Source: a virus
Strand: one strand, 5' to 3'
Virus record (IMG/VR): IMGVR_UViG_3300045988_180981
Span: 1-37,188 of that record
DNA length: 37,188 nt
Below are positions 1 through 36,160 of this stretch, piece after piece. Below the pieces are notes generated by a model, which was not told the DNA's origin, ran no database searches, and saw only the letters and a list, made by a program, of their open reading frames with translations. Every line of letters starts with the position of its first letter. Positions within the stretch are counted from its first letter, which is position 1. The translations under genes were made by a program, and so were the position numbers.

Positions 1-119
1 CCAACATCGCACGCGCACACGGGCGATTTGGGATTTACGAAGTAAAGCCCATGAAAGTAATGCCACCGCGGAAAAAAGGGAAAAAAATTCGAAGGGGTTG
101 GGTAGCCCCGAAAAAAAGG
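1..119. repeat. Left copy of a 119-bp exact direct terminal repeat; identical to 37070-37188
   Basis: Base-by-base comparison of the two window ends (ccaacatcgcacgcgcacacggg ... ccccgaaaaaaagg). Confidence 0.9.
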
Positions 120-360
120 AGAAAAAATGCGAGGGGGGAATCCCGACATACCCCCGAAATTTCGAGGGGGTGTGTAGGGGGGGCTATAAGGGGGGTTATT
201 TTCTTTTTATTCCATGAAGATAGATTGACAAGGAAGAACCCCTTTCTTTTAGGGTGGGAAGAAGGGACGGGGGGATAGAGAAAAAGGGGGAAAGAAACTC
301 GAAGGGATAGGGGAAGAAGAAAAGAGGGGAAAGAACCGGCAAGGGGAAAGGAAGGTGTTC
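80..360 (+). repeat. Polypurine (G/A-rich) tract on the plus strand, dense in G4-G7 runs; G-quadruplex or triplex-prone
   Basis: Runs GGGGGG, GGGGG, GGGGGGG, GGGGGG, GGGGGG, GGGGG, GGGG x3 separated by short A-rich spacers. Almost no pyrimidines across ~250 nt. Confidence 0.6.
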
Positions 361-436
361 AAGCTGCTAGAGACCCATAAAAAAGGAATAGGTATAAATG
401 AGTCCATTTGATCCATGGGATACCGTTTTAAGTGTA

Positions 437-545
437 AAGTAAAAGTACTTAACACTAGGGGAAATAGGGGAAAAAATAAATCGGGAAAAAATTATTGTTT
501 TGTGCACTCTGCACAATTCCCCTGTCAAGTAAAACTGCTTAACAC
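437..545. repeat. Two ~19-bp direct repeats, AAGTAAAAGTACTTAACAC (437-455) and AAGTAAAACTGCTTAACAC (527-545); candidate protein-binding sites in the terminal non-coding region
   Basis: Seen by eye; 17/19 identity, about 90 bp apart. Confidence 0.5.
500..516. promoter_or_regulatory. Inverted repeat TTGTGCA-ctc-TGCACAA
   Basis: Perfect 7-bp arms with a 3-nt spacer. Confidence 0.4.
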
Positions 546-558
546 CCCCACGCGTAAC

Positions 559-572
559 GTTTCACGTGAAAC
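559..572. promoter_or_regulatory. Perfect 14-bp palindrome GTTTCACGTGAAAC with a CACGTG core; candidate dimeric protein-binding site
   Basis: Self-complementary on inspection. Confidence 0.5.
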
Positions 573-971
573 ATAAAACCGTTTAAATCCTCTTCCCATG
601 AACCAAAAAATACCCAATGCCCCCAGAAGCCCTAGAAACCCCTATAATTTCAACGAAAAGAATTTCCTAGGGTAAATATTCAAACTTTCATCAAATTCGC
701 TTCTATCGCGAAATGGGCTTTTCATCGATACTTTTTGCTATGCCATTTTTAAGCAATTTTCATATCCATATCGAAAAAAAAGGATCTCTTCCCTATTCCA
801 TCGTTTCCCATTCTTGAGCGATAGAGCGAAAAGCCTAGAACGCCTCTAAAACCCTTTTAAAGCCATCTAGAAGCCTTTTACCGTGTCGGTTGGGGAATTT
901 ATCCATCTAAACAATTAAAACGCTTCTAAGAGCCTAAAAATGGCTTTGTGTTGGAAATGACGGGAAATAGG

Positions 972-1004
972 CAAAATAAAAAGAGGGGAGCAGCTCGCCC
1001 CCCT
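972..1004 (-). terminator. Rho-independent terminator closing the early operon
   Basis: Minus strand reads GGGGGGCGAGCUGCUCCCCUC followed by UUUUUAUUUU, immediately 3' of the stop codon of gene 1021-1644. Confidence 0.5.
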
Positions 1005-1020
1005 GATTATTGAACGCTTT

Positions 1021-1644
1021 TCAATAGTTATACCATTTAGACCTTTTGGACTCGCTATAGGAATCTTCTAATAATTTAAGCTCTTTAGCGTTTTTCCGCG
1101 GCTTTCCCTTAAATTCGTGGACGATTGAATAGTTATACACTTTTTTATCTTTTTGCCATCCCTTCGTGATTATGGCAGCTTTGCCTTTTATTTTGGCTAA
1201 AAAGTTTTGCTGGCATTCGTAGATTCTCGCCCACTTTTTAGATCCCCTATTTTCGGTCCAATAATAAGTTATAATCGCGTATTTGTCGGAACATTTAGCA
1301 ATTTTCGCTTCTTCCATTTTTGACCTCGTCCATCTATCGATTTGGTCGAGGTCGTCAAGGTTGATTTTAGAGAAATCGTCTACTACATCGTAGAAATCAG
1401 TTTCATTGTAATACTTGCCGGTGTGATGCCAACTAGTCTTTTTCAAAAAAGCGTGTTTTACCGTTTTAGCAGATAGCCGCTTAATCCTTTTCATATCCTC
1501 GTCACTAGATTCAAGATCTCCCGAGTCAATTAGCTTCTGCAAGCGCTCGATAATCTCGCTTTTCGTCCATTTCGAAAAAGGGCGCTCGCCCATGTCATAG
1601 GCTTCTGCCGCCCTCTCGCTCATCCTTTGCCCAATGTATCCCAT
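1021..1644 (-). CDS. Hypothetical protein (207 aa); last gene of the early operon
   Basis: ORF with AAGGAG 13 nt upstream of the ATG; no motif recognised. Confidence 0.6.
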   Translation of the reverse strand: MGYIGQRMSERAAEAYDMGERPFSKWTKSEIIERLQKLIDSGDLESSDEDMKRIKRLSAKTVKHAFLKKTSWHHTGKYYNETDFYDVVDDFSKINLDDLDQIDRWTRSKMEEAKIAKCSDKYAIITYYWTENRGSKKWARIYECQQNFLAKIKGKAAIITKGWQKDKKVYNYSIVHEFKGKPRKNAKELKLLEDSYSESKRSKWYNY

Positions 1645-1668
1645 AATCTTATTTTTCTCCTTTTTTAT

Positions 1669-1694
1669 CGCCCCCTTTTGTGAGGGTGGGGGCG
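1669..1694 (-). promoter_or_regulatory. Copy A of a 29-bp exact repeat forming a GC-rich hairpin (CGCCCCC-12 nt-GGGGGCG) directly 5' of the SD and ATG of gene 1021-1644
   Basis: GCCCCCTTTTGTGAGGGTGGGGGCGAACC is identical at 1670-1698 and 2056-2084. Confidence 0.6.
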
Positions 1695-1705
1695 AACCCT
1701 GTTTT

Positions 1706-2035
1706 TTATTGATTGTCGATTATCGCCTTGATGATGTCCGCGGTGCTCATGCAATCCGCGTTCTTTTCTAGGTATTTGCAAATGTCGTACTTGATGGTTT
1801 CTCCTACTAAGTTTCGGTAGCCAGTCGTCAATACGATGGGGTGCGCTCCTTTTTCATCGGTAATTAGGTAGCAATCGAAGTTCCATCCATAATAACCGCA
1901 ATTGTAGCCGATTTGCTGGACACATCCGCGAGAATGGAGCGCGTTAATCGTGTATTGAAGCGAGCAATACGAGGCGGAGCGGTGCGTTCCGCAAATGTCG
2001 TTCAAGGCTTCTTTTTTCGTTAATTTTAAGTTCAT
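1706..2035 (-). CDS. Small papain-like (C39-like) cysteine peptidase domain protein (~110 aa)
   Basis: Cys motif CGTHRSASYCSLQY (CG..S....L.Y) and His motif HPIVLTTGY (resembles the HYVVL.G of C39 peptidases). AAAGGAG 8 nt before the ATG at 2035. The track ORF extends to 2149 across the hairpin repeat, so it was truncated. Confidence 0.35.
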   Translation of the reverse strand: MNLKLTKKEALNDICGTHRSASYCSLQYTINALHSRGCVQQIGYNCGYYGWNFDCYLITDEKGAHPIVLTTGYRNLVGETIKYDICKYLEKNADCMSTADIIKAIIDNQ

Positions 2036-2055
2036 TTTTTTTACTCCTTTATGAA

Positions 2056-2079
2056 GCCCCCTTTTGTGAGGGTGGGGGC
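2056..2079 (-). promoter_or_regulatory. Copy B of the 29-bp hairpin repeat, directly 5' of the SD and ATG of gene 1706-2035
   Basis: Same 29-mer as copy A, in the same position relative to AAAGGAG and the ATG. Confidence 0.6.
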
Positions 2080-2141
2080 GAACCATGTTTTTAGTCCTCG
2101 TCTTCTTCGTTTTCGTCTTCTTTTCCTCCTTGCCTTTCGGC

Positions 2142-2180
2142 GCTATCATAGTAGCCCTAAGAGCAATCGTAAGTCAACAA
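2142..2180 (-). promoter_or_regulatory. Promoter-like motif TTGACT...TTGCTCTTAGGGCTACTATGAT, related to the AGGGCT family; hexamer spacing is non-canonical
   Basis: Sequence similarity to P3 and P4; resembles CCAAGGGCTATGATAGTGG at 36707-36725 on the plus strand. Confidence 0.25.
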
Positions 2181-2314
2181 GAAAAAGCAAAAATTTTGAA
2201 ACTTTTTTGATCTTCTTTTTTCGTTGACGCTCTTCTTTTAGGCGAGATCTCTCTATGCCGCGCCCCCCCCTATTTTTCGCCCTTTTTCTCGCGATCTCCC
2301 CGAACCCCCTTACG

Positions 2315-2380
2315 CACGCATAATGCGCCCATTCGCGCAATTCGCGCCATGCCCGTGCGCATAATGAGCACCCATAGCGC
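2315..2380. promoter_or_regulatory. Two copies, 40 bp apart, of a near-palindromic GC-rich site: CGCATAATGCG in copy 1 (perfect 11-bp odd palindrome) and GCGCATAATGAGC in copy 2 (one-mismatch variant of GCGCATAATGCGC)
   Basis: Copy 1 is a perfect 11-bp odd palindrome; copy 2 has one mismatch in the flanking arms. Confidence 0.35.
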
Positions 2381-2399
2381 CCGTATGCACGAAAAAAGC

Positions 2400-2640
2400 C
2401 GTCAAACCAACGGGTTCAACGGCTAATCCAACGGTCAACGGTGACGGCCAACGGTGGTTTCAACGGCAACGGCAACGGTGACGGCCAACGGTGACGGCTA
2501 ACGGTGACGGCCAACGGCAACCGCTAACGGTAACGGCCAACGGCTACAGCAAACGGGTGGGGTAAACGGGAACGGCCAACGGTGGTTTTCTTTCCTCGTA
2601 CGGATAAAAGCAACGGCACGACCTAACGGTGACAACAACG
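2400..2640. repeat. Iteron-like array: about 20 copies of the pentamer AACGG, including four tandem 13-bp units AACGGTGACGGCC
   Basis: Counted by eye at 6-13-nt spacing. The distal part overlaps the 3' end of the rusA ORF. Confidence 0.7.
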
Positions 2641-3062
2641 GAGGGTGTCAAATCGTAGTGCTTCGCCATGCAAACATTAACCACTTGGGAATCGTCAACA
2701 AAGGCAATCCCATTCAATCCATCCAAAACGGCTTTCAAAACGTTGTCCAAGTCGGGCTTCTTCGTGGGCAATTCCTCACCGCTCAACTTCGCCAAGCCAT
2801 GCTTGTTCGGTTGCCCCTTCGAGTTGTAATCCGCCTTCTTCAAGCCGAACCACGCCATGACTTCCACCGCGATAGGCCCTGTGAGTGGCTTCGCCTCGGG
2901 GTACTTCTCCTTGAACTCATGGGCGAACCTCGCTTCGTAAGAGAGCGTTTTCGATGGGGTGTAAATGTGCGTGTGCCCCCCGAAGGAGGTTGCCCTAGGC
3001 CTTTGCTTTCCCATCGGCTCTCCCAAAACGTTAATCGTGTACTTAAATTCTTCTTCTGCCAT
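2544..3062 (-). CDS. rusA: RusA-family Holliday junction resolvase
   Basis: GKQRPR near the N-terminus and KPDLDNVLKAVLDGLNGIAFVDDSQV, which are RusA hallmarks. GAGGAG 10 nt upstream of the ATG at 3062. The C-terminus runs into the AACGG repeats, so the 3' extent is uncertain. Confidence 0.75.
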   Translation of the reverse strand: MAEEEFKYTINVLGEPMGKQRPRATSFGGHTHIYTPSKTLSYEARFAHEFKEKYPEAKPLTGPIAVEVMAWFGLKKADYNSKGQPNKHGLAKLSGEELPTKKPDLDNVLKAVLDGLNGIAFVDDSQVVNVCMAKHYDLTPSVVVTVRSCRCFYPYEERKPPLAVPVYPTRLL

Positions 3063-3076
3063 ATCTTCAAAACTCC

Positions 3077-3367
3077 TCAATAGCATTTATAACGCATTAT
3101 GTGGTTTTTATTCTCGTCCAAACCCTTCGATTCAAACCTTTCGAGCAATGTTGATTCTTTGATATTTCCTCGTGAGGTGTTTCGCACATCTTCGACTTTC
3201 AACAACTCAATGATTCCTTTGAACCCAGTGCTCATTTCCTGCTCGCACGTCTTGACGAAGCATAGGCTGGCGCCATCGCGGTCTTGCTCCTCATACTCGG
3301 TTACTTTGGTGAAGTCCGCGTATTCGGAAGTTGAGCGCACTATGTAATAAGGTACTTTCATTTCCAT
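3077..3367 (-). CDS. Hypothetical protein (~96 aa)
   Basis: AAGGAG 9 nt upstream of ATGGAAATG; start taken at the internal Met of track ORF 3077-3391. Confidence 0.55.
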   Translation of the reverse strand: MEMKVPYYIVRSTSEYADFTKVTEYEEQDRDGASLCFVKTCEQEMSTGFKGIIELLKVEDVRNTSRGNIKESTLLERFESKGLDENKNHIMRYKCY

Positions 3368-3486
3368 TTTGTTTATCTCCTTTTTAGACAATTAGAGGGC
3401 TTTCTTTCAATCAATCGAACAATTTGCCATGGGAAGCGACAATTCGCCTCCATGAGCCTAGAAATGGCTTTTAATGGCATTGTGGG

Positions 3487-3945
3487 CTATTCCTTCCGCT
3501 CATTGCGCATGAGTTCATCCCAAACTTCTTGGTCGAACGTGTCGATGGACTTCACCGCCTTGGTTAGATTCCCATTGCGGATGTCGCCAATAGCACCGCT
3601 TTCCATCAATTCCCTCAAAGTCATTTTCGATGGCTTGTTGAAGATGAAGATAGGGCAATCTTTGTTGCACGCTATTCCCATGACGAACTCGCCCACGTTG
3701 CAAATCCCGATGTTGTGGCTACCCATGTTGTCATGGCCGATATTTCCATCGCCAACGTTGTAATCGCCAACGTTGTTCGATCCATAGTTGCCATTGCCTT
3801 TGTTTTGGCTTCCGTGGTTGCAATCGCCATGGTTGCAATCCCCAACGTTGAAGTCTCCCTCGTTCCAAGAGCCGTGGTTGCAATTGCCTCGGTTCTCAAC
3901 GCCCTTGTTGAGAGCGCCTAAGTTGTTGTCTCTAGTCTTGCTCAT
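3487..3945 (-). CDS. Pentapeptide-type beta-solenoid repeat protein: 17 consecutive N-x-G-x-x pentads; candidate DNA-mimic (Qnr/MfpA-like) protein
   Basis: Gly at residues 10,15,...,90 and Asn at 8,13,...,83 without a break. The 15-nt periodicity is also visible in the DNA. Start overlaps the upstream stop (ATGA at 3942-3945). Confidence 0.7.
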   Translation of the reverse strand: MSKTRDNNLGALNKGVENRGNCNHGSWNEGDFNVGDCNHGDCNHGSQNKGNGNYGSNNVGDYNVGDGNIGHDNMGSHNIGICNVGEFVMGIACNKDCPIFIFNKPSKMTLRELMESGAIGDIRNGNLTKAVKSIDTFDQEVWDELMRNERKE

Positions 3946-4427
3946 GCTTTTGAATCCTCCTCAATCGCTTTTTTCTCGCTCATCATTTTCTGGATTCTCC
4001 TCAATAAATCGGGGTGGGTGACAATCACCTCGTCAAAGTCTTCCGCTTCCGCTATCGCGAAGAAGATAGTCCTTGAGCTCAATTGCCTTCCCCATTCTCC
4101 TTCTTTCGGCAAATCCTCGAAATCGACACCTTCCCATTGTGTTGGGTCAAAATCAATGATGGCATGGGTTTTCAAGGTAACTGCTTCGATTGTCCTATCT
4201 TCGTTTCCTCTTTCGTCCGTAGATACGAAAACTTCAGCAATTTTAGTGGAATATGCCCTCATCAAAACGCTTCCATTATTCGCTTTCATGTTTCCCTTAA
4301 CCGTTTCCGCAATGTTGGATTCCGCCTCTTTTGCGAGTTCAAGGGATTCATATTCCCCTTCGAAGAAAGGCTTTTTCGCTCGGCTAATCATATCGCAAGC
4401 GGTCAATACGTATTTGTACATTTTCAA
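3942..4427 (-). CDS. Hypothetical acidic protein (161 aa)
   Basis: Minus-strand ORF, translationally coupled to the pentapeptide-repeat gene. Confidence 0.55.
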   Translation of the reverse strand: MKMYKYVLTACDMISRAKKPFFEGEYESLELAKEAESNIAETVKGNMKANNGSVLMRAYSTKIAEVFVSTDERGNEDRTIEAVTLKTHAIIDFDPTQWEGVDFEDLPKEGEWGRQLSSRTIFFAIAEAEDFDEVIVTHPDLLRRIQKMMSEKKAIEEDSKA

Positions 4428-4432
4428 TTCTC

Positions 4433-4693
4433 CTATAAAGTTTCCTTTTTAGTCCACTTTCTCATTCGGTATCCATTTTGGCAAAGTGTAATGCTCTTCA
4501 ATTCACTTTTTGGGCATAATGCCGACTTTTCAATCAACGAAAGAGCCATATTGTGGATTCCTTCGTAATCATAATCCTCAATCACTACTCTTTTTTCTCC
4601 TTTAAAATCGAGAACTAATGAAAAATATTCCATTTTGTGCAATGCGTCCTCTGCGTCACACGTGCTACTAACTTCCCATAAATCTTCTTTCAC
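4433..4693 (-). CDS. Hypothetical protein (~87 aa); start set at the GTG preceded by AGGAG. An alternative ATG lies at 4720.
   Basis: Track ORF 4433-4774 read in frame. The AGGAG overlaps the stop of the upstream acidic ORF. Confidence 0.45.
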   Translation of the reverse strand: MKEDLWEVSSTCDAEDALHKMEYFSLVLDFKGEKRVVIEDYDYEGIHNMALSLIEKSALCPKSELKSITLCQNGYRMRKWTKKETL

Positions 4694-4704
4694 TTTCAAT
4701 TCTC

Positions 4705-4869
4705 CTATTCGTCTTCCCATAGTTTCGAGTCTCGCCACTCTTCGTATTTGGCATCCTCGTATGGATCTTCCCAATCCTCAAGTTGCGTTCCAAAATCTTC
4801 TTCGTCTTCGTCTTCTTCGTCTAGCAATTCTTCGTCTTCGTCCAACAATTCTTCATCTTTCTTCGGCAT
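4705..4869 (-). CDS. Unannotated 54-aa hyper-acidic protein MPKKDEELLDEDEELLDEEDEDEEDFGTQLEDWEDPYEDAKYEEWRDSKLWEDE; candidate DNA-mimic anti-defence protein
   Basis: Translated by hand from the minus strand. AAGGAGG 8 nt before the ATG at 4869, TAG stop at 4705-4707. Absent from the ORF track because it is under 60 aa. Confidence 0.6.
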   Translation of the reverse strand: MPKKDEELLDEDEELLDEEDEDEEDFGTQLEDWEDPYEDAKYEEWRDSKLWEDE

Positions 4870-4892
4870 TTTCTTGCCTCCTTTTCGATACC

Positions 4893-4917
4893 ATTATAAT
4901 AAGCCCTTAGAGCAAGT
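4893..4917 (-). promoter_or_regulatory. Promoter-like element CTAAGGGCTTATTATAAT: a TATAAT -10 hexamer preceded by the conserved AGGGCT motif; -35 is weak
   Basis: Lies between the methyltransferase stop and the acidic ORF's SD. Confidence 0.4.
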
Positions 4918-4933
4918 GCATCTAATGGATTTT

Positions 4934-6379
4934 TCACAACAATTCTTTGAATATGTCCATCAGCACGTCCACAACGATGGAATCACCGGCGCAATGGTAT
5001 ATGGCAGAATCGCTCATCCCGATGGCGCGCATGGCTTGCTCGTCCTTGTCATTGAACCCCATGAGCCTCATGCATTCCAATGGGGTGAGTTTGCGAAGCT
5101 TCCCTTCGGATTGCGTGACAATGTCGATGGTTGTTTTAATCGTCTGGCTCATTCCGCTTTGCACGGTTCCGCGGTGGTATTGCATTCTCGTTCCACAATC
5201 GATTCCATCCCCTTCCTCGGCTTCTAGGTAACCCTTCTTGGTTGCGTTGCGGACGAGGATCTTCCCCATGAAGAACGGGGAAGTTGTGACACACGTGGAC
5301 AATCCGCCATCGCTGTAAACGCGATTGCCGAGCGATGGCTGCTTTCCATTCACCTTGGGGTTCAGGCATTCGGTGACAACCGTCCACCCAGAATCGAAAG
5401 AACCTTTGGCTTTTAATGTCCTTGCAACTCCCTTCTTCCCCGATTCTATGGAATTTTCGAAATCGCCTTTTCGGTCGAACCCCTTGGAATCTCCATAAAG
5501 CATGGTCTCAATAATTCTTGGGGATAGATTGTATTTTTGATCGGGGTTTTCCTCCAAAAGGTCGCGAAGCCTCTTGACGAGTTTCCTCTTCTTCGGGAAG
5601 TGGTATCCATATTCACCGAGAATGGAGACCATGAACACGCGGAGGCGGTTTTGGGGGATTCCATGGTCTTTGGCATTCACCTTCGCCCAATAGGAAGAAT
5701 ACCCAAGTTCCTCCAAGCGGTCTAGCCACTCGTTCCAAGGCTTGAGGTTTCTATCTCCGCAAACTCCGGGGACGTTCTCCATCAAGAGCACATCTGGCCT
5801 CTGCCCTGCTTCCTTAAGCTCACCGAGAAGCCTTTCGACCTCCCAAAGCAATCCCGACCTTGTGCCGCTACCCTTTTCCATGCCGGCCAATTTCCCCGCT
5901 TGGGAAAGGTCTTGGCATGGAAATGAATAAGTGAGAACGTAGCAATGCTGCCTATCTCCCTCCTTCTCGATGGATAAGCCGCTAGGGTGAATCTCCGAAA
6001 CGTTGGGGCAAAAGTCATTGCACGCGTCCATTGCTCCGCAAAGTTCCTCCAAAGCTTTTCTCCCCAATTTTTCCCTTTCTTCTTCCGATAGTGGGGAATT
6101 GTAATCCTTGGAAACACCGCAAGTTCTTTTTAAAAGTTCTTCCATTGGCGCTTCTTCCCACTTGCCTTTCTCGCACCTCCAGCCATTGTGGATTGCTGCG
6201 TAAGATCTAATGGAGGGAATTGCCCACTCGCACAAGCGCCATCTTTCAAAATCGGCATTGATGTTTTCCAAAGCTTTCGCTTGCGAACCAATACCACCGA
6301 ATAATTCGATGAGGCGGATTGGCTTGTTGATTTTGTATTCTCTTCTGCTTTGGGCGAACAGATTCAATTGCTCGTTCAT
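4934..6379 (-). CDS. DNA (cytosine-5) methyltransferase (orphan MTase, ~481 aa)
   Basis: Motif I LFGGIGS, motif IV SFPCQDLSQAG, motif VI LLMENVPG, motif VIII QNRLRVF, a long variable (TRD) region, then motif IX LTPLECMRLMGF and motif X GDSIVVDVL. Start at MNEQ, with GGAG upstream. Confidence 0.9.
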   Translation of the reverse strand: MNEQLNLFAQSRREYKINKPIRLIELFGGIGSQAKALENINADFERWRLCEWAIPSIRSYAAIHNGWRCEKGKWEEAPMEELLKRTCGVSKDYNSPLSEEEREKLGRKALEELCGAMDACNDFCPNVSEIHPSGLSIEKEGDRQHCYVLTYSFPCQDLSQAGKLAGMEKGSGTRSGLLWEVERLLGELKEAGQRPDVLLMENVPGVCGDRNLKPWNEWLDRLEELGYSSYWAKVNAKDHGIPQNRLRVFMVSILGEYGYHFPKKRKLVKRLRDLLEENPDQKYNLSPRIIETMLYGDSKGFDRKGDFENSIESGKKGVARTLKAKGSFDSGWTVVTECLNPKVNGKQPSLGNRVYSDGGLSTCVTTSPFFMGKILVRNATKKGYLEAEEGDGIDCGTRMQYHRGTVQSGMSQTIKTTIDIVTQSEGKLRKLTPLECMRLMGFNDKDEQAMRAIGMSDSAIYHCAGDSIVVDVLMDIFKELL

Positions 6380-6380
6380 T

Positions 6381-6659
6381 TTACTTGTCTCCAAAATCCC
6401 CGAAATATTCATCGACCCATGTTTTCAATCCCTTTATGATTTCGCGCTTTTTCCTAGCTATTTCCTCATAAGAGCCATTCCCTTTGTTTCCTTGAGGAAC
6501 ATAACTATATTCGGCAAGGCTTTCAATCATCATGTCAATCATGTTGCTAAGCAAATCCAAGTTCTTCACGCTCTCGGAATCATGGTTCGTTTCTCCCCAC
6601 CACGAAGTGTCGGGTATAAGCCTCTTTAAGGCCTCTAGAACAAATTCTTTGTCATTCAT
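6381..6659 (-). CDS. Hypothetical protein (92 aa)
   Basis: Minus-strand ORF packed against its neighbours. Confidence 0.5.
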   Translation of the reverse strand: MNDKEFVLEALKRLIPDTSWWGETNHDSESVKNLDLLSNMIDMMIESLAEYSYVPQGNKGNGSYEEIARKKREIIKGLKTWVDEYFGDFGDK

Positions 6660-6672
6660 TTCCTTTCCTCCT

Positions 6673-7302
6673 TTAAATAAGTCCTACTAATATCATTACG
6701 AAGAATGCAAGGGAAACGGGGCATTCTATCAACGCGATTATCCCGATGATGGAGTTAGGCCTTGGACCTAAGTCAGCGCTTAGGAGAAGTATTCCGCTTG
6801 CCATTGCACATATCCACGTATTGCCAAGTGCCAGAGACGAATCGTGTGTCAATACCGCGGTGACTATTAGCGCAGGGCTTACCAAGAACGTGATGGCGTA
6901 GAGCACCGCGCAAAACACGAAGAACTCCCTTTGCTCCGAATCATCAATGCTCTCCATGAGCACCTTCTTCCTCGCTTCTTGCACTTCCGATAATGTCATG
7001 GTTTTCCAATGGTGCTTCTTCTTCCAACGTTCCAAATAGGGGCGGTAGTCGATCCATGATGGGTAAAACACGTACAATCCCTCGAAAGCGTTCTCAGTAA
7101 TGAGGATGGCTTTGTATACTTGCCACCCACCTCCGCTCAATGGGCACTTGATGTATATCCCCTCTTCCTCTTGGTTCGGGAATACCTTGCACCCATCAAC
7201 GTTCAATCCGAATGCTTTTACGTAATCATCTCTGGTGCGAAGGATTCTTTTGCTTCTCAATATGCGGACTTCCTCACCGAACCTGTTCATTCTCTCTTCC
7301 AT
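6673..7302 (-). CDS. Membrane-anchored hypothetical protein (209 aa): soluble N-terminal domain and about 3 C-terminal TM helices
   Basis: C-terminal hydrophobic stretches; no motif recognised. Confidence 0.5.
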   Translation of the reverse strand: MEERMNRFGEEVRILRSKRILRTRDDYVKAFGLNVDGCKVFPNQEEEGIYIKCPLSGGGWQVYKAILITENAFEGLYVFYPSWIDYRPYLERWKKKHHWKTMTLSEVQEARKKVLMESIDDSEQREFFVFCAVLYAITFLVSPALIVTAVLTHDSSLALGNTWICAMASGILLLSADLGPRPNSIIGIIALIECPVSLAFFVMILVGLI

Positions 7303-7311
7303 TGGTTATTC

Positions 7312-7605
7312 CTATTCTCTTTCGACCGTATATGATTTTGTTAGCGTTCCATCATTCATGATGAATATCTTTTCGATTGTATAACCAGAGCTTTTTAAGC
7401 AATCAGCGATTTCGGAAATTTTTTCTTCCCTTTCTTTTTTTATTTCCGATTCGCTACCAAAAAACAATCCACCGGTAATAACTTCAACAGAAATTTCGTT
7501 TAACTTTTTAAATATTTCGTCTCCAAATTCTTTTATCTCGTTGTTTTGGATGTAGTAGTAATCCAATCCACATGGGTAATCATAAGTTTCAATCAATAGG
7601 TTCAT
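7312..7605 (-). CDS. Hypothetical protein (~97 aa)
   Basis: AAAGGAG 8 nt upstream of the ATG at 7605. Confidence 0.55.
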   Translation of the reverse strand: MNLLIETYDYPCGLDYYYIQNNEIKEFGDEIFKKLNEISVEVITGGLFFGSESEIKKEREEKISEIADCLKSSGYTIEKIFIMNDGTLTKSYTVERE

Positions 7606-7618
7606 TTTGATTACTCCT

Positions 7619-7714
7619 TTAATGTTTCCATGTGTAGTACCACAAGATAGTAGCCACAACCACTACCGCCAAGGTAAGACCGGCGACCGTCCAAACAAGC
7701 TTCATTTCTTCCAT
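7619..7714 (-). CDS. Possible 31-aa single-TM peptide MEEMKLVWTVAGLTLAVVVVATILWYYTWKH
   Basis: GAGGAG 8 nt upstream of the ATG at 7714; hydrophobic core. Confidence 0.3.
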   Translation of the reverse strand: MEEMKLVWTVAGLTLAVVVVATILWYYTWKH

Positions 7715-8145
7715 AGGCGCAACTCCTCTATCGTGTATTCGCGGTTGATTTCTAGTTTTGCGTACATTTTCCCCTTCTTGAAGGGGGGGAGGTATATCCA
7801 ATCATCGTAGGTGTGGATAGCGAGCGCCACGTAGTCTATTTTCTCAATGCGGTACTCCAACGCGATTCCCTCAACTTCATTCCTGAATGGCGCTAGGAAG
7901 TTCCTCAAATACTTCCTCTCGGCTTTGTCCAAGAGGTGTTCTTTCTTTAGGTTCCCCTCTTTGAATAGCCTTTTGTTGTGCTTCTTTGCGATTTTGTTCC
8001 AACCGCCTACCGACAACGCGCTTTTGTGCTCCACCGACTTGCTCATGCGGTAGGTGACGATAACCTTGTCCTTCTTGTCGCCTTTGAGAATGGGCCACTT
8101 GTTTTCATCGTTGAACCCATTCATTTCGATTTCGGTTTTCTTCAT
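7702..8145 (-). CDS. Hypothetical protein (~147 aa)
   Basis: AAGGAG upstream of the ATG at 8145. Confidence 0.55.
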   Translation of the reverse strand: MKKTEIEMNGFNDENKWPILKGDKKDKVIVTYRMSKSVEHKSALSVGGWNKIAKKHNKRLFKEGNLKKEHLLDKAERKYLRNFLAPFRNEVEGIALEYRIEKIDYVALAIHTYDDWIYLPPFKKGKMYAKLEINREYTIEELRLWKK

Positions 8146-8378
8146 TGTTGCTCCTTGTATCCGCATTCGTGCCAGATGATTTTCCATTTGTTGTCCTCCG
8201 TCCATTCGTAGATGGTTGAGGACACGTTCGACTTTTCGCTGATCTCCAACATTTTGTCTCTAGCGTGGATTATTGCGGTGTCCTTGTCATGAAATACTTT
8301 TGTCAAAGAATCTTCGTAGGTGATTTTGACGATGTAGCGCCTATTCCCCTTGTTCGGGTTCACTTGGTAGGATTCCAT
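8142..8378 (-). CDS. Hypothetical protein (~78 aa)
   Basis: GAGGAG 6 nt upstream; TAATG overlap with the upstream gene. Confidence 0.5.
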   Translation of the reverse strand: MESYQVNPNKGNRRYIVKITYEDSLTKVFHDKDTAIIHARDKMLEISEKSNVSSTIYEWTEDNKWKIIWHECGYKEQQ

Positions 8379-8725
8379 TAGAACTCCTCTCCGAAGCCCA
8401 TCGTGGATAGGATATCCACCATGTCGCATTGCGCTTGTTCCATGACTTCTCGAATGCGGTTTAGTTGTAGTTCGCCGGCGCTCATGAGTTTGAATGATTC
8501 CACATCGAATTTAATGTCCTTCGCGGTGATTGGGTCTCCATAGATGTTGCAGATGGAATCGTCCATCGTGTTCCAATGGATCATAACGCTCCCGACAACC
8601 TCACCGTCCAATTCGTAGTCTTTATAGGCAAAGGCGAACTCCATGCCATCGCTTTCGTACACATCGTATCCCGCTTCTTTCATCGCTTTTAAGGTGTTAA
8701 GCGTAACCAGTCTTTTTTTGTTCAT
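8378..8725 (-). CDS. Hypothetical protein (~115 aa); first gene downstream of promoter P1
   Basis: GGAGG 9 nt upstream of the ATG at 8725. Confidence 0.55.
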   Translation of the reverse strand: MNKKRLVTLNTLKAMKEAGYDVYESDGMEFAFAYKDYELDGEVVGSVMIHWNTMDDSICNIYGDPITAKDIKFDVESFKLMSAGELQLNRIREVMEQAQCDMVDILSTMGFGEEF

Positions 8726-8746
8726 TACTTGAACCTCCATGCCACC

Positions 8747-8774
8747 ATTATACTAGCCCCTAGAACGATTGCAA
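8747..8774 (-). promoter_or_regulatory. Sigma-70/sigma-A-like promoter P1: TTGCAA-16 nt-TATAAT, spacer contains CTAGGGGCTAG
   Basis: Read from the reverse complement of 8747-8774. Confidence 0.65.
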
Positions 8775-8783
8775 TAGCATTTT

Positions 8784-8813
8784 GAAAAAATAAAAAAGAG
8801 GGCCGAAGCCCCC
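8784..8813 (-). terminator. Rho-independent terminator
   Basis: Minus strand GGGGGC-UUCG-GCCCUC hairpin followed by UUUUUUAUUUUUU. Confidence 0.6.
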
Positions 8814-8830
8814 AACGAGTATCTCTCTCG

Positions 8831-9025
8831 TCACCTGCGTTTATAATAATCGAGCAAGGCTTTTATGGCAACCATAATCCAATGGGTTAATATGCCAATG
8901 CAAAGCCAGAATGAACAACTCATGAGAACCAATGCCACGATTTGTAATGCCCCTTGTTGTGTGAGCATTATAGACAGGCAACACAAGCATAAAAGAGCCG
9001 ATAGGAAGAATGAAACAATCGTCAT
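8831..9025 (-). CDS. Small membrane protein (64 aa, 2 TM helices)
   Basis: Hydrophobic ORF followed by a terminator. Confidence 0.45.
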   Translation of the reverse strand: MTIVSFFLSALLCLCCLSIMLTQQGALQIVALVLMSCSFWLCIGILTHWIMVAIKALLDYYKRR

Positions 9026-9028
9026 TTG

Positions 9029-9505
9029 CTATTCCTTCTTAGATTCTCCAATCACTCTAGGTTTAATAAATTCTCCGTAATCCTCCTCCTTCTTTGTTTG
9101 CTCTTTTTCTTTTTCATTCTCTTCTCCCATTTCGGTTAAGATTTTAATGCACATTTTTATGTATGCACGGATGTTCATGTAGTCCGTATCAAGGAACATA
9201 TAATGAGCACTTTTCATTCTTTTGTACTCGTGCTCATCATAAAACCTTTCGTCAATTTCTTCCCATTCCTCTTTTCGGTGGTTTTTGCTTGCTACGGCTT
9301 GGCTCAATAGCCTTACCAATTCTCGCAAATCCTTCAAATCGGATTCATTCTTTTTCATCATGTTGTGTCGCTCGATTCCCTTCTTGTCGATATGCACCTC
9401 ATACTTCTCAACTTTATCTCCATCGTAGTTATAAACCAAAATAGGCCTTATCCGCTTGGGATACTTTAGGCTTGGCATTAAAGAATATTTTCTTTCAAAT
9501 TTCAT
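9029..9505 (-). CDS. Hypothetical protein (158 aa)
   Basis: Minus-strand ORF, coupled to its neighbours. Confidence 0.5.
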   Translation of the reverse strand: MKFERKYSLMPSLKYPKRIRPILVYNYDGDKVEKYEVHIDKKGIERHNMMKKNESDLKDLRELVRLLSQAVASKNHRKEEWEEIDERFYDEHEYKRMKSAHYMFLDTDYMNIRAYIKMCIKILTEMGEENEKEKEQTKKEEDYGEFIKPRVIGESKKE

Positions 9506-9852
9506 ACCATAATCTCCCGTAATGTATTGAGCGAACGCGATTGCCCCAGAATAACCGTTCTAGGCTCTTTGAGCGCGTTCGTGGGCAATAACTCCACTAA
9601 TGAGCCGTTTAAGCGCGTAGAGGGGCTTTTAAGGGTTTTCCAAGCCGTTCCGCCATCGTCTCGCACAATCTCCAACACGTTGAATTGCGTGTAATCGTCT
9701 CGAATGGTATCGACCGTGCACAAAGCCACGAACGCTCCTCCCATTGACTTTTGCTTCATGGTTTGGGCTTTGGCCACAAGGAAGTATCGCCCTGCGGTGC
9801 TATCGAACATGGTCTTTCCAGACAAGGCGATTCGATGGAACTCCCTTAGCAC
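9502..9852 (-). CDS. Hypothetical protein (116 aa)
   Basis: ATGA-type overlap with the downstream gene. Confidence 0.5.
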   Translation of the reverse strand: MLREFHRIALSGKTMFDSTAGRYFLVAKAQTMKQKSMGGAFVALCTVDTIRDDYTQFNVLEIVRDDGGTAWKTLKSPSTRLNGSLVELLPTNALKEPRTVILGQSRSLNTLREIMV

Positions 9853-10202
9853 GGTCTAGCCCTCTTAACGCTTGGGGCTTTTTGCTCAAGGATCTTAATC
9901 CTCTTATTGCCAACTATGTGGTAATGGATTGGCCACTTGGGTGGAATCCCGTGCCCCTTGAACGAAACCGTGCCCAACGGGAATAGGAGAATCGTCTTTG
10001 GGGTCATTTGGATGATTTCCGCATCATAGACCACGTAGCCGGACATTGGGCTTTTTGGACTTGTTCCCATGGACATTCGTACCGCAATCTTGATATATGG
10101 GCTTGTGAGGTCTTTTGGGCCAATGGAAGGAAGGGACTCGAACTCATCGTAAGCTTCTTGCTCAATCCCTTCCCTTTTCGCTCTATCAAATCCCATAGGC
10201 AT
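9846..10202 (-). CDS. Hypothetical protein (118 aa)
   Basis: Minus-strand ORF in operon context. Confidence 0.5.
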   Translation of the reverse strand: MPMGFDRAKREGIEQEAYDEFESLPSIGPKDLTSPYIKIAVRMSMGTSPKSPMSGYVVYDAEIIQMTPKTILLFPLGTVSFKGHGIPPKWPIHYHIVGNKRIKILEQKAPSVKRARPC

Positions 10203-10404
10203 CGAACCCCAGTAAATCTTTGAGAGCTTTGCGCAGAGGGCCGCTCATTTTGAAAACGCTTTTGTCACCATGCTCCAAATGGGTATAGTGGGAAATGGAA
10301 ACCCCAACGGCCTCCGCCACTTGCTCTTGGGTCATTCCCTTTTTTCTACGGGCTTCGGCCAAAGCCTTTCCCCCAAGTTTGTTTTTCTCTTGCAATCCGA
10401 TCAT
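10186..10404 (-). CDS. XRE-family helix-turn-helix transcriptional regulator (72 aa)
   Basis: MTQEQVAEAVGVSISHYTHLEHG is a classic HTH_3 signature; GAGGTGA SD. Confidence 0.8.
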   Translation of the reverse strand: MIGLQEKNKLGGKALAEARRKKGMTQEQVAEAVGVSISHYTHLEHGDKSVFKMSGPLRKALKDLLGFDAYGI

Positions 10405-10422
10405 ATTATCACCTCACTTTGT

Positions 10423-10905
10423 TTAGAATGGCAAATCATCTTCCGACAATTCCTCAATGGCTTGCGAGCGCATATTCGGAATGGTTCTCTCTTGCGGTTT
10501 CGTTGGCGCTCTGGATACAAATTGCGCGGTCTCGATGGCTGGCGCGTAAGAGAGCGGTTGTTGTTCTTGCGGTTGCGGTTTGGCCTCGCCTTTTGGTTGC
10601 GCATGGCATAGGCACTCGACCCTATCCGCGTAGACCTTCACGCCCAATCGCTTCGAGCCGTCTTTTCCTTGGTATGGGTGAACCGACAAGCGACCGTCAA
10701 CGAGAATCAAGTCTCCCGTTTTTAGATACTTAATGCAATAGTCTCCCGTAGTGCCCATGGCGGTGCAATCGAGAAACATCGTCTCCTCCGCACCGTCTTT
10801 CGTCTTGTAGGATTGAGCGACCGTGAAAGCCACCCATCTATTTTGGTTTCCTGCCATTTCTGGCGCTTTGGTCAATCGACCTTCGTAGATAACTTTGTTA
10901 TACAT
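10423..10905 (-). CDS. ssb: Single-stranded DNA-binding protein
   Basis: N-terminal NKVIYEGRLTKAPEM OB-fold start, Gln/Pro-rich linker and the acidic C-terminal tip DDLPF. Confidence 0.85.
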   Translation of the reverse strand: MYNKVIYEGRLTKAPEMAGNQNRWVAFTVAQSYKTKDGAEETMFLDCTAMGTTGDYCIKYLKTGDLILVDGRLSVHPYQGKDGSKRLGVKVYADRVECLCHAQPKGEAKPQPQEQQPLSYAPAIETAQFVSRAPTKPQERTIPNMRSQAIEELSEDDLPF

Positions 10906-10922
10906 TTGATATATACCTTCTT

Positions 10923-10960
10923 ATATATTTTGATAACCCGACTTACGCTTTTATGCAAAT
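10923..10960. promoter_or_regulatory. 10-bp perfect inverted repeat GATAACCCGA...TCGGGTTATC with an 18-nt loop, between sak and ssb
   Basis: Seen in sequence. No U-tract follows on the minus strand; the plus strand has TTTTTC after it. Confidence 0.45.
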
Positions 10961-10988
10961 CGGGTTATCTTTTTCAATAACTTTCTTC

Positions 10989-11813: not shown

Positions 11814-11829
11814 TGTACAAATTCTCCTT

Positions 11830-12414
11830 TTATTCTTTTAACGTCCAATCGATTTTTAGGCTTTGAGCGTATTGCCTTAGTTGTAGCAATGCGTTGCGAG
11901 AGCCTTTGAGTTCCACGTTGGCGGTGGTCTTTTGGGCCAATTCCAACGCGTTCTCAATGTAGTGGTGAATCGTCTCCTTGGAAGCCGATTGCGGAATCTC
12001 CAAGTAAATCGAATCGAAGCTCGGGATTTCCGCGTAGGGCATTTCCCCGTCCTCGTTTGGCGCGATTAGCGAATCGTAGTAGCACTTGGCTTCCTTGTAG
12101 CGCTTCGCTTTCTTCACTTCGAGAATCTTCGCGGAGAAGTCCTTGTTTTCGAGTTCAAGGGGCTTTATTGCTTCCAGAACCTTTTGCTCCACCGCGGTGA
12201 ATGGCTCTAGAAACGCTTCCTTGGCTTCCTTAAGCGAATCTTTCGTTCCCTTGATGAATTTGTTGGCTTGCGTGCGCAAGTCCTCCAACGAGGTCGCGTT
12301 GTCCTCGGTGATGGCTAGGGCATTTAGATGTCCTGCCATTTCCAATGCCTTGTCCGAGATGGCTTGCAAGTCCACTTGGGGCAATTGGTTTTCAATCGTC
12401 TTAATTAGTTCCAT
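11830..12414 (-). CDS. DUF1351-like phage protein (194 aa), the usual partner gene upstream of Sak in Firmicutes siphophages
   Basis: Helical, acidic protein; assignment by position and composition only. Confidence 0.35.
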   Translation of the reverse strand: MELIKTIENQLPQVDLQAISDKALEMAGHLNALAITEDNATSLEDLRTQANKFIKGTKDSLKEAKEAFLEPFTAVEQKVLEAIKPLELENKDFSAKILEVKKAKRYKEAKCYYDSLIAPNEDGEMPYAEIPSFDSIYLEIPQSASKETIHHYIENALELAQKTTANVELKGSRNALLQLRQYAQSLKIDWTLKE

Positions 12415-36158: not shown

Positions 36159-36160
36159 CT

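What the first reader, a model, noticed from the sequence alone, without database searches (positions are those of the whole stretch)
3487..3945. Phage-encoded pentapeptide-type beta-solenoid protein: 17 uninterrupted N-x-G-x-x repeats
Gly recurs at residues 10,15,...,90 and Asn at 8,13,...,83, a perfect period of 5 over 85 residues. That is the signature of a right-handed quadrilateral beta-helix, as in Qnr, MfpA, AlbG and McbG. Those proteins mimic B-DNA and bind DNA-processing enzymes such as gyrase. The consensus here (hydrophobic-N-h-G-x) is not the canonical A[DN]LxG, so this may be an undescribed subfamily. The gene sits in a cluster with an orphan methyltransferase and two highly acidic proteins, which suggests a DNA-mimic anti-defence or host-takeover role against targets such as restriction enzymes, RecBCD, gyrase or a nucleic-acid-sensing defence system.
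Basis: partly seen in the sequence, partly recalled or inferred. Interest (0 to 1): 0.8.

Follow-up and report, generated by a model that had tools for sequence, protein, structure and literature searches.

The report
Phage Asn-Gly pentapeptide solenoid protein
This is a real, conserved phage gene for a small protein made of 17 "x-x-Asn-x-Gly" repeats; it belongs to the catalogued Pentapeptide_2 repeat family (function unknown) rather than the Qnr/MfpA DNA-mimic family, and nothing found here supports DNA mimicry.

Summary
The minus-strand ORF 3487-3945 encodes 152 aa with Gly at 10,15..90 and Asn at 8,13..83. It is the coding frame: against a relative there are 32 synonymous and 6 non-synonymous codon changes, while the plus-strand ORF shows 1 versus 14 and acquires a stop.

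The repeat is not undescribed. It is Pfam PF01469 Pentapeptide_2 (69 bits, cut-off 26.4) and PHROG 14105. PF00805-type models hit none of 106 family members. AlphaFold models do not superpose on MfpA, QnrB1 or AlbG. Published AlphaFold work predicts a much thinner 10-residue-coil solenoid for PF01469, and a two-repeat periodicity in the family agrees.

The protein is a short member of a very large family from Clostridia phages and prophages (>6,000 clusters). Most members carry an N-terminal DUF7666 domain, which this protein lacks. The repeat region is near-neutral across the family. The methyltransferase neighbourhood is not conserved in close relatives.

The function is unknown. My best guess is an early-region accessory binding or scaffold protein.

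Side finding: DUF7666 models as an ADP-ribosyltransferase-like fold.

The parts
3487..3945 (-). Coding sequence, 152 aa plus stop: a short, DUF7666-less member of the phage Pentapeptide_2 repeat family
   Evidence: ORF list and translation. Pfam PF01469 E=3e-19, 69.1 bits against a cut-off of 26.4. PHROG 14105 E=2.3e-20. 32 synonymous versus 6 non-synonymous codon differences against L002. Its 90%-identity cluster holds 427 member sequences, on contigs of about 35-37.6 kb among those listed.
3956..3962 (-). Shine-Dalgarno sequence GAGGAGG, 10 nt upstream of the ATG. The ATG (3945-3943) overlaps the TGA (3944-3942) of the upstream ORF 3942-4427, which suggests translational coupling.
   Evidence: Read directly from the sequence and the ORF coordinates.
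3676..3930 (-). Residues 6-90: 17 contiguous pentapeptide units x-x-N-x-G (the last, EFVMG, keeps only the Gly). Predicted beta-solenoid rod.
   Evidence: Register and positions. The AF2 model has one beta-bridge per pentapeptide at repeat position 4, pLDDT 70-79. Asn and Gly never vary among 17 close homologues, while positions 1, 2 and 4 do.
3616..3675 (-). Residues 91-110, IACNKDCPIFIFNKPSKMTL: the conserved post-repeat module (family consensus G-x-F-N-T...I-x-x-F-N-K-P-S-x-x-T). Interpreted as the C-terminal cap of the solenoid.
   Evidence: F102 is invariant and G90 conserved across 106-122 family members. Short strands are modelled at 98-101 and 104-109. The equivalent part of homologue P0006 is modelled at pLDDT 74-96.
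3490..3615 (-). Residues 111-152: short helical tail (RELMESGAIGDIRNGNLTKAVKSIDTFDQEVWDELMRNERKE). IDTFDQEVWDEL aligns with the family's LPNFDxxIFxEI motif. The roughly 60-residue middle segment of the mainstream family is missing.
   Evidence: Alignments A1 and A3. Helices predicted at 110-115, 118-123, 129-132, 139-144 and 147-151, but pLDDT is only 47-66 here. The same tail occurs in P0006, P0007 and P0021.
3715..3921 (+). Antisense ORF (68 aa). Not coding; it is a by-product of the repetitive codon pattern on the other strand.
   Evidence: Against L002 this frame shows 1 synonymous versus 14 non-synonymous changes and an in-frame stop in the relative. All neighbouring genes run on the minus strand.

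Best explanation
The gene encodes a cytoplasmic phage accessory protein of the early/replication region. It is a short member of the large Pentapeptide_2 (PF01469) repeat family carried by Clostridia phages and prophages.

Shown:
- It is a real gene under purifying selection.
- Its 17 xxNxG units meet the PF01469 model and do not meet the Qnr/MfpA-type (PF00805) models.
- A family-conserved post-repeat module (...IFNKPS..T...) and a short helical tail follow the repeats.
- It lacks the N-terminal DUF7666 domain that 102 of 106 aligned relatives carry.

Inferred structure: the repeats form a thin Asn-ladder beta-solenoid with two pentapeptides (10 residues) per coil. That is about 8.5 coils, or roughly 4 nm. 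The invariant Asn and Gly build the core and turns, positions 1, 2 and 4 are exposed, and the conserved C-terminal module caps the rod.

Inferred function (weakest step, about 0.3 on its own): the rod is a rigid scaffold or binding surface rather than a DNA mimic. In full-length relatives it links an ADP-ribosyltransferase-like N-terminal domain to the C-terminal module. Those genes sit in phage early regions and can form tandem arrays of up to seven paralogues, so the family probably acts on host or phage proteins early in infection. The window protein would then be a binding-only version, a modulator or competitor for the same kind of target, with no enzymatic head.
For: Gene reality: 32 synonymous versus 6 non-synonymous; 427-member cluster; Asn and Gly invariant.

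Family membership: PF01469 at 69.1 bits; PHROG 14105; 836 representative-level relatives at E<=1e-3; >6,000 clusters at 90% identity, typically DUF7666 plus Pentapeptide_2, named 'pentapeptide repeat-containing protein' in Clostridia; 373 relative-encoding stretches in IMG/VR.

Fold:
- AF2 places a beta-bridge every 5 residues.
- AF2 predicts a 10-residue coil for PF01469 (PMC9663297), and four prediction methods agree on the fold (bioRxiv 10.1101/2024.10.30.621056).
- Across 299 repeat runs, residue identity at repeat position 4 is higher at even lags than at odd lags (about 0.57 versus 0.51, z about 20 against shuffles), with no extra lag-4 signal (z 0.3).

Scaffold role: the same repeat occurs in PPE proteins, in a wall-anchored MucBP/MBG adhesin and in a cNMP-binding protein.

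Context:
- In prophages the gene follows the cro/HTH switch and precedes an SNF2 helicase.
- Here it lies between a C5 methyltransferase and RusA.
- 26 of 122 non-redundant loci hold two or more copies, up to seven.
- DUF7666 models with an ART-like fold and has conserved H, Y and E residues.
Against: - No experiment or literature exists on this family, so the function is inference from architecture and position.
- Model confidence for the window protein is only moderate (mean pLDDT 64.8, tail 47-66). In the homologue model the repeats are modelled worse (47-71).
- I could not inspect coordinates, so the 10-residue coil rests on published AF2 work plus an indirect sequence-periodicity test. 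Only 164 of 299 individual runs show that periodicity, and duplication of two-repeat units could also produce it.
- AF2 is known to over-predict beta-solenoids for repeats (bioRxiv 10.1101/2024.10.30.621056).
- Within its own lineage the protein is strongly conserved, with no sign of the diversifying selection that an arms-race role might predict.
- Short forms could have a function unrelated to the full-length proteins.
Confidence: 0.6

Rival explanations
1. One reading: a Qnr/MfpA-like right-handed quadrilateral beta-helix that mimics B-DNA and blocks a DNA-processing enzyme or a nucleic-acid-sensing defence.
For: The period of 5 is perfect. The protein is mildly acidic (net -6, pI 5.3). PF01469's sister families form four-sided helices (PMC4858275). 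The gene lies near a C5 methyltransferase and a hyper-acidic 54-aa ORF. A Lar restriction-alleviation gene lies 1.7 kb from homologue P0006.
Confidence: 0.06
2. An anti-defence or host-takeover protein that works through protein-protein binding rather than DNA mimicry. For example, it could act as a decoy or inhibitor of a host immune protein through the exposed residues of the solenoid. This is a more specific version of the best explanation.
For: Early-region or nin-like location among small accessory ORFs. Tandem arrays of divergent paralogues in some phages. Exposed position 2 is rich in Arg, Tyr, Cys and Trp, a typical binding-surface composition. Repeat number varies from 4 to 40, and by 1 and 6 repeats even among close homologues. 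Several ART-fold hits of the sister domain are toxins or an anti-CRISPR, AcrF11.
Against: No match to any known defence or anti-defence model. Strong conservation within the lineage. Evidence by position only; no target identified.
Confidence: 0.2
3. A decaying remnant: an N-terminally truncated leftover of a full-length DUF7666-pentapeptide gene with no function of its own.
For: It lacks DUF7666 and the roughly 60-residue middle of the mainstream C-terminal region. The subfamily with this tail is rare.
Against: Clear purifying selection, 32 synonymous versus 6 non-synonymous. An intact ORF with a good ribosome-binding site is kept in a 427-member cluster on near-complete phage contigs. The homology block is retained while its flanks are swapped. 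Other short forms without DUF7666 recur, such as P0021 and P0043.
Confidence: 0.05
4. The plus-strand ORF 3715-3921 is the expressed product and the repeat protein is an artefact.
For: An open 68-codon frame exists.
Against: 1 synonymous versus 14 non-synonymous differences and an in-frame stop in the relative L002. It runs opposite to every assigned gene in the window. The minus-strand frame has significant Pfam and PHROG hits and hundreds of homologues.
Confidence: 0.01

Closest known systems
Pentapeptide_2 (PF01469) repeats of mycobacterial PPE-MPTR proteins
   Same: The same xNxGx unit with invariant Asn and Gly. It scores 69 bits on the Pfam model. Repeat number is variable. AlphaFold predicts a beta-solenoid with a 10-residue coil (PMC9663297). 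No solved structure exists.
   Different: There is no PPE or PE secretion domain and no signal peptide. It is phage-encoded and presumably cytoplasmic, far shorter (17 repeats), and ends in a conserved ...FNKPS... cap and helical tail that are specific to the phage and Clostridia family.
DUF7666 plus Pentapeptide_2 proteins of Clostridia phages and prophages (PHROG 14105; NCBI 'pentapeptide repeat-containing protein')
   Same: True homologues: the repeats, the post-repeat module (F102 invariant) and the terminal xxFDxxxW/F motif all align. They share the phage early-region location.
   Different: The window protein lacks the roughly 95-aa DUF7666 domain and the MTDEEK...GGYLK...WW middle segment. 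It has 16-17 repeats against a family median of 24. Its exact subfamily is seen only in metagenome assemblies, with no NCBI or UniRef entry among the members read.
Qnr, MfpA, AlbG and McbG (PF00805 pentapeptide repeat proteins; Rfr quadrilateral beta-helix; DNA mimics acting on gyrase)
   Same: A five-residue period and a repeat-built beta-solenoid. PF01469 has been called a sister family of these repeats (PMC4858275).
   Different: A different consensus, with no central Leu/Phe and no A(D/N)LXX. No HMM, profile or structural match. Two pentapeptides per coil are predicted instead of four. No consistent negative charge in the family.
Narrow two-sided beta-solenoids (curli CsgA, ryegrass ice-binding protein, UspA1 head)
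   Different: The matches are weak (rmsd 7.6-9.5 A) with no sequence relation. Their coils are longer than 10 residues (from my own knowledge of those structures), and they are extracellular proteins.

Membership tests
Pfam PF01469 Pentapeptide_2 | Score above the curated gathering threshold of the family HMM | tested here: met
   69.1 bits against a cut-off of 26.4, E=3e-19, two stretches.
Pfam PF01469 Pentapeptide_2 | Tandem xNxGx units with Asn and Gly conserved | tested here: met
   Asn at 8..83 and Gly at 10..90 in register. Both are invariant in 17 close homologues and invariant or at least 90% conserved across 106 family members.
Pfam PF01469 Pentapeptide_2 | Predicted thin beta-solenoid with two pentapeptides (10 residues) per coil (Akdel et al. 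2022, PMC9663297) | tested here: inconclusive
   AF2 gives one beta-bridge per pentapeptide at pLDDT 70-79 and no match to any solved solenoid class. A family-wide periodicity of two repeats is seen (z about 20) with no four-repeat signal. Coordinates could not be inspected, and only 164 of 299 runs show the signal individually.
PF00805-type pentapeptide repeat proteins (Qnr, MfpA, AlbG, McbG) | Match to the PF00805, PF13599 or PF13576 HMMs | tested here: not met
   No such hit at E<=10 for the window protein or for any of 106 family members. The only other pentapeptide model seen was GETHR (PF05671), in 1 member at E=0.026.
PF00805-type pentapeptide repeat proteins (Qnr, MfpA, AlbG, McbG) | A(D/N)LXX consensus with an inward-facing central Leu/Phe and a small residue at i-2 (consensus from my own knowledge of the family) | tested here: not met
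   Position preferences across the family: position 1 N/D/S, position 2 R/Y/C/W, position 3 Asn, position 4 S/T, position 5 Gly. No position is conserved as hydrophobic.
PF00805-type pentapeptide repeat proteins (Qnr, MfpA, AlbG, McbG) | Right-handed quadrilateral (Rfr) beta-helix fold | tested here: not met
   [not shown]
PF00805-type pentapeptide repeat proteins (Qnr, MfpA, AlbG, McbG) | Electronegative, DNA-sized surface; binding to gyrase or topoisomerase | not testable with these tools
   Only charge could be computed. The window protein has net -6; the family median is -0.09 per repeat, ranging from -0.42 to +0.19.
DUF7666-pentapeptide phage family (PHROG 14105) | PHROG HMM match and alignment of the post-repeat module | tested here: met
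   PHROG 14105 E=2.3e-20, residues 11-140 on profile positions 102-222 of 297. G90 and F102 are invariant in alignments of 21 and 106 sequences.
DUF7666-pentapeptide phage family (PHROG 14105) | N-terminal DUF7666 (PF24703) domain | tested here: not met
   The protein starts 5 residues before the first repeat. DUF7666 is found in 102 of 106 aligned members but not in this one. The upstream ORF 3942-4427 shows no profile similarity to the family profile that contains DUF7666 (hhalign probability 0.2%).
DUF7666-pentapeptide phage family (PHROG 14105) | C-terminal LPNFDxxIFxEITGI motif and the MTDEEK/GGYLK middle segment | tested here: inconclusive
   The middle segment is absent. IDTFDQEVWDEL aligns with the motif but is degenerate, as in P0006, P0007 and P0021.
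Acidic DNA-mimic anti-restriction proteins (Ocr/ArdA-like) | Very high density of Asp and Glu that imitates a phosphate backbone | tested here: not met
   D+E make up 14% of residues, pI 5.3. The neighbouring 54-aa ORF 4705-4869 has 54% D+E.

The most novel reading that the evidence does not exclude
The Clostridia-phage Pentapeptide_2 family is an uncharacterised class of early phage effectors. A minimal Asn-ladder beta-solenoid, the thinnest coil yet proposed, would serve as a length-adjustable arm carrying an ADP-ribosyltransferase-like head (DUF7666). Head-less forms such as this protein would act as binding-only inhibitors or decoys for the same host target, for example a defence or DNA/RNA-metabolism protein. 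Because it is small, soluble and head-less, this 152-aa protein would also be a convenient object for the first experimental structure of the PF01469 fold.
Probability: 0.15. Interest if true: 0.7.

Novelty: new member of a known kind. Interest (0 to 1): 0.4.

Why it matters
As a DNA-mimic claim it does not hold, so it should not be passed on as a Qnr-like anti-defence candidate. Three things remain of interest.

1. PF01469 repeats, usually regarded as a mycobacterial PPE feature, are very common in gut Clostridia phages, and nobody has assigned them a function.

2. No structure of this repeat has been solved, and AlphaFold proposes the shortest possible beta-solenoid coil for it. A 152-aa cytoplasmic protein that is little more than 17 repeats plus a cap is a practical target for testing that prediction.

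3. The partner domain DUF7666 models with an ADP-ribosyltransferase-like fold and has conserved His, Tyr and Glu residues. This turns a large family of unknown function into a testable enzymatic hypothesis, although the domain is absent from this particular gene.

Tried and rejected
- Megablast of window 1-12000 against GenBank phages found no match.
- tblastn of the protein against phages gave only two distant hits, Clostridioides phage AR1086-1 and a faecal phage, both unannotated or hypothetical.
- NCBIfam gave no hit for the protein or for 10 homologues. PADLOC gave none.
- A PDB sequence search with the protein, and a second with a family profile, found nothing significant.
- The afdb50 fold library was unavailable, so the model could not be compared with AlphaFold PPE models.
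- The search for related loci with the broad alignment A1 failed for lack of a conserved stretch. The single protein found one IMG/VR relative and none in the reference genomes.
- A third homology search with the tail alignment returned only 5 near-identical proteins, so the MSA for the tail could not be deepened.
- Split-gene idea: the upstream 161-aa ORF shows no profile similarity to the family profile that contains DUF7666.
- Thg1 lead: the mainstream C-terminal region weakly resembles Thg1 residues 41-135 (E 0.43 in PDB; 2 of 106 members in Pfam; hhalign probability 58%). I judged this not significant, and by my reading of the alignment the catalytic acidic residues do not line up.
- Promoter and terminator scans across 2400-7400 found no more than shuffled sequence gives.
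- Literature searches for DUF7666, and for pentapeptide repeats together with phage, prophage or anti-defence terms, found nothing on this family.
- Parity of repeat number (even/odd, mod 4) shows no preference, so it says nothing about coil length.

Full report
**1.

Window 3487-3945 on the minus strand is a 152-codon ORF. Its product has Gly at 10,15...,90 and Asn at 8,13...,83. That makes 17 contiguous x-x-N-x-G units spanning residues 6-90; the last unit, EFVMG, keeps only the Gly. Gly is 22/152 of the residues, so 17 fixed positions all being Gly has a chance of about 5e-15 (my arithmetic).

At the DNA level the units have diverged. Only two short 15-nt arrays are detected, so the period is maintained at the protein level and is not a fresh amplification.

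A GAGGAGG ribosome-binding site lies 10 nt upstream. The ATG overlaps the stop of the preceding ORF (ATGA).

**2. Which strand codes**

I compared the window with the 90%-identical DNA of a related phage contig, L002.
- The minus-strand frame shows 32 synonymous and 6 non-synonymous codon differences.
- The plus-strand ORF 3715-3921 shows 1 synonymous and 14 non-synonymous differences, plus an in-frame stop in the relative.

The exact protein sits in a 90%-identity cluster of 427 member sequences. It is seen only in ENA and Logan metagenome assemblies, on contigs of about 35-37.6 kb among those listed. None of the 40 members read carries a name or an NCBI/UniRef accession. In 17 of these sequences Asn and Gly never change. 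The few substitutions in the repeats fall at positions 1, 2 and 4.

**3. What the window is**

The window is a tailed-phage genome, and every gene I assigned a function to lies on the minus strand:
- large terminase, 34710-36164
- portal, 32418-34202
- Sak-like annealase, 10989-11813
- C5 cytosine methyltransferase, 4934-6412
- RusA, 2544-3086.

The target lies in the accessory stretch between the methyltransferase and RusA.

**4. What the repeat is**

- Pfam gives a single hit even at E<=10: PF01469 Pentapeptide_2, at 69.1 bits against a gathering score of 26.4.
- PHROGs gives phrog_14105, function unknown, E=2.3e-20.
- NCBIfam and PADLOC give nothing.

So the N-x-G-x-x consensus is not an undescribed subfamily. 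It is the xNxGx repeat best known from mycobacterial PPE-MPTR proteins.

No PF00805-type model, the family of Qnr and MfpA, matches the window protein or any of 106 aligned relatives at E<=10. A profile of the family finds no solved pentapeptide-repeat protein in the PDB.

Position preferences over 256 proteins are: position 1 N/D/S, position 2 R/Y/C/W, position 4 S/T. No position offers the conserved inward Leu/Phe that builds the core of the four-sided Rfr helix (that core description is from my own knowledge of the family).

**5. The family**

- A full HMMER scan of 1.84 billion representatives gives 836 hits at E<=1e-3.
- A profile search gives more than 6,000 clusters at 90% identity.
- There are 373 relative-encoding stretches in IMG/VR.
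- There are 164 in species-representative genomes, mostly gut Clostridia (Lachnospiraceae, Oscillospiraceae, Clostridium), with a few Enterococcus, Fusobacterium and others.
- Source names are 'pentapeptide repeat-containing protein', 'DUF7666 domain-containing' and, wrongly, 'PPE family protein'.

The typical member is 300-400 aa and has four parts:
- DUF7666 (PF24703)
- about 24 repeats (range 4-40)
- a conserved post-repeat module, G-x-F-N-T....I-x-x-F-N-K-P-S-x-W-T
- a C-terminal region ending in LPNFDxxIFxEITGI.

The window protein aligns through the repeats and the post-repeat module (G90 and F102 invariant). Its IDTFDQEVWDEL matches the terminal motif. It lacks DUF7666 and the MTDEEK...GGYLK...WW middle segment. 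Its closest full-length relatives with the same short tail are P0006 (312 aa, with DUF7666), P0007 and P0021. That tail subfamily is rare. The upstream ORF is not a detached DUF7666.

**6. Fold**

AF2 with a 106-sequence alignment gives mean pLDDT 64.8. The repeats score 70-79 and the tail 47-66. There is an isolated beta-bridge at position 4 of every pentapeptide, then two short strands and several short helices.

Comparison with solved structures:
- Foldseek against the PDB finds nothing significant. MfpA, QnrB1 and AlbG appear only at E 2.9-8.7, with TM 0.1-0.2 and rmsd about 10-12 A.

[quoted passage not shown] A later study finds that four prediction methods agree for this family, while warning that AF2 over-predicts solenoids for perfect repeats (bioRxiv 10.1101/2024.10.30.621056).

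As an independent check I measured residue identity between repeats as a function of lag over 299 repeat runs. At position 4 the even lags give about 0.57 and the odd lags about 0.51 (z about 20 against within-run shuffles). There is no additional lag-4 signal (z 0.3). This fits a two-repeat structural unit rather than a four-repeat one. Two caveats apply: only 164 of 299 runs show it individually, and duplication of two-repeat units could contribute.

I could not see coordinates, and afdb50 was unavailable. The 10-residue coil is therefore the best-supported reading but is not proven.

**7. DNA mimicry and the gene-cluster argument**

The protein has net charge -6 and pI 5.3. Across the family the repeat region is near neutral: median -0.09 per pentapeptide, with a 5-95% range of -0.42 to +0.19. 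A consistently electronegative surface is therefore not a family property. A 10-residue coil would also be roughly half the width of B-DNA (my inference).

The neighbourhood is mosaic:
- In L002 and L003, homology to the window runs through 3342-3939 and then jumps to 7325. The whole block with the methyltransferase and the acidic ORFs is replaced there.
- In L007 the methyltransferase is kept, but 3940-4684 is replaced (gene tables).

The gene is thus an independent module, not part of a fixed methyltransferase/acidic-protein cassette.

Weak points in favour of an anti-restriction setting remain. C5 methyltransferase-like ORFs occur within the flanks of 12 of 122 non-redundant family loci. 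A Lar gene lies 1.7 kb from P0006.

**8. Context elsewhere**

In two prophages the family gene directly follows the cro/HTH switch genes and lies upstream of an SNF2 helicase, directly in one and about 1.2 kb away in the other. The same arrangement recurs in IMG/VR loci.

In 26 of 122 non-redundant loci there are two or more copies. One phage lineage carries tandem arrays of up to seven divergent paralogues.

Pentapeptide_2 repeats also occur behind a PPE domain, in a KxYKxGKxW-signal/MBG/MucBP wall protein and in a cNMP-binding protein. This fits a generic rod or stalk role.

**9. Side finding on DUF7666**

- PARP15, PARP13, Arr and KptA/Tpt1.
- The Rhs toxins TreTu and TreX, MbcT, AcrF11, the diphtheria and pertussis toxins, RES and DarT.

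Across 116 members, H69 (GFHFC) is conserved at 94%, Y81 at 97%, E91 at 88% and E115 at 90%. This resembles an H-Y-E triad. No paper mentions DUF7666. The domain is absent from the window protein, so this bears on the family and not directly on this gene.

**10. Most likely mechanism**

Shown: this is a conserved, translated-looking early-region phage gene. It is a Pentapeptide_2 repeat protein, a member of the Clostridia-phage family, without the DUF7666 head, and not a PF00805-type protein.

Inferred: a thin Asn-ladder solenoid of about 8.5 coils (roughly 4 nm), capped by the ...IFIFNKPS... module and followed by a small helical tail.

Further inferred, with low confidence: the rod is a rigid binding or scaffold element. 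In full-length relatives it presents an ART-like head, and the head-less form binds the same kind of partner without modifying it.

Rivals:
- Anti-defence by protein binding is compatible with the data and unproven.
- Qnr-like DNA mimicry is disfavoured.
- A decaying remnant is disfavoured by the purifying selection.
- The plus-strand ORF is refuted.

**11. Verdict**

The repeat is real and striking, but it belongs to a catalogued repeat family and a catalogued, functionally unknown phage protein family. The Qnr/MfpA analogy and the DNA-mimic story are not supported.

Interest is moderate. The fold has no experimental structure, and this small protein is a good test object for it. The family is abundant and uncharacterised, and the ART-like partner domain gives a concrete hypothesis to test.

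Noticed in passing
[not shown]
   Followed up: partly
window 4705-4869 (-): A 54-aa ORF with net charge -24, 54% Asp+Glu and pI 4.05, just downstream of the C5 methyltransferase. It overlaps the TTG-started ORF 4433-4774. On charge alone it is a better DNA-mimic or anti-restriction candidate than the repeat protein. It has no Pfam, PHROG or PADLOC hit.
   Followed up: partly
L081, L083, L087 and also L063, L069, L076, L079, L080, L082 (IMG/VR contigs of sample 3300045988 and one of 3300008479): Tandem arrays of five to seven divergent DUF7666-pentapeptide paralogues, most separated by roughly 120-nt spacers, in one phage lineage. 26 of 122 non-redundant family loci hold at least two copies.
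   Followed up: partly
window 3939/3940 and 3152-3341: Mosaic junctions. Relatives L002 and L003 match the window at 3342-3939 and then jump to 7325, so the methyltransferase block is absent. L007 keeps the methyltransferase but replaces 3940-4684. The 190 bp at 3152-3341, inside the 104-aa ORF 3077-3391, are missing from L002 and L003.
   Followed up: yes
Mainstream family C-terminal region (alignment A6); the window retains only the flanking motifs at about 3490-3650: Weak resemblance to tRNA-His guanylyltransferase Thg1 residues 41-135 (FEKPND ... LPNFDAR). PDB profile E 0.43, Pfam Thg1 in 2 of 106 members (best E 0.024), hhalign probability 58%. Not significant, and by my reading of the alignment the catalytic acidic residues are not aligned.
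   Followed up: partly
window 3676-3930 compared with P0002 and P0003: Near-identical homologues differ by clean deletions of 1 repeat (5 aa) and 6 repeats (30 aa). Rod length therefore changes in whole-repeat steps, including odd numbers.
   Followed up: yes
L088:8612-8821: A Lar restriction-alleviation gene (PF14354) lies 1.7 kb downstream of homologue P0006, within a run of small unknown ORFs.
   Followed up: no
Proteins P0008, P0010, P0033: Pentapeptide_2 repeats also occur fused to a cNMP-binding domain, to a KxYKxGKxW signal with MBG and MucBP wall-adhesin domains, and to PPE. This suggests a general stalk or scaffold module.
   Followed up: partly
L001:685-1296 (Clostridioides phage AR1086-1): In this 130-kb C. 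difficile phage, the DUF7666-pentapeptide homologue (315 aa) lies 2.3 kb downstream of a gene annotated as kptA RNA 2'-phosphotransferase. KptA is itself an ART-fold enzyme (my own knowledge of the fold).
   Followed up: no
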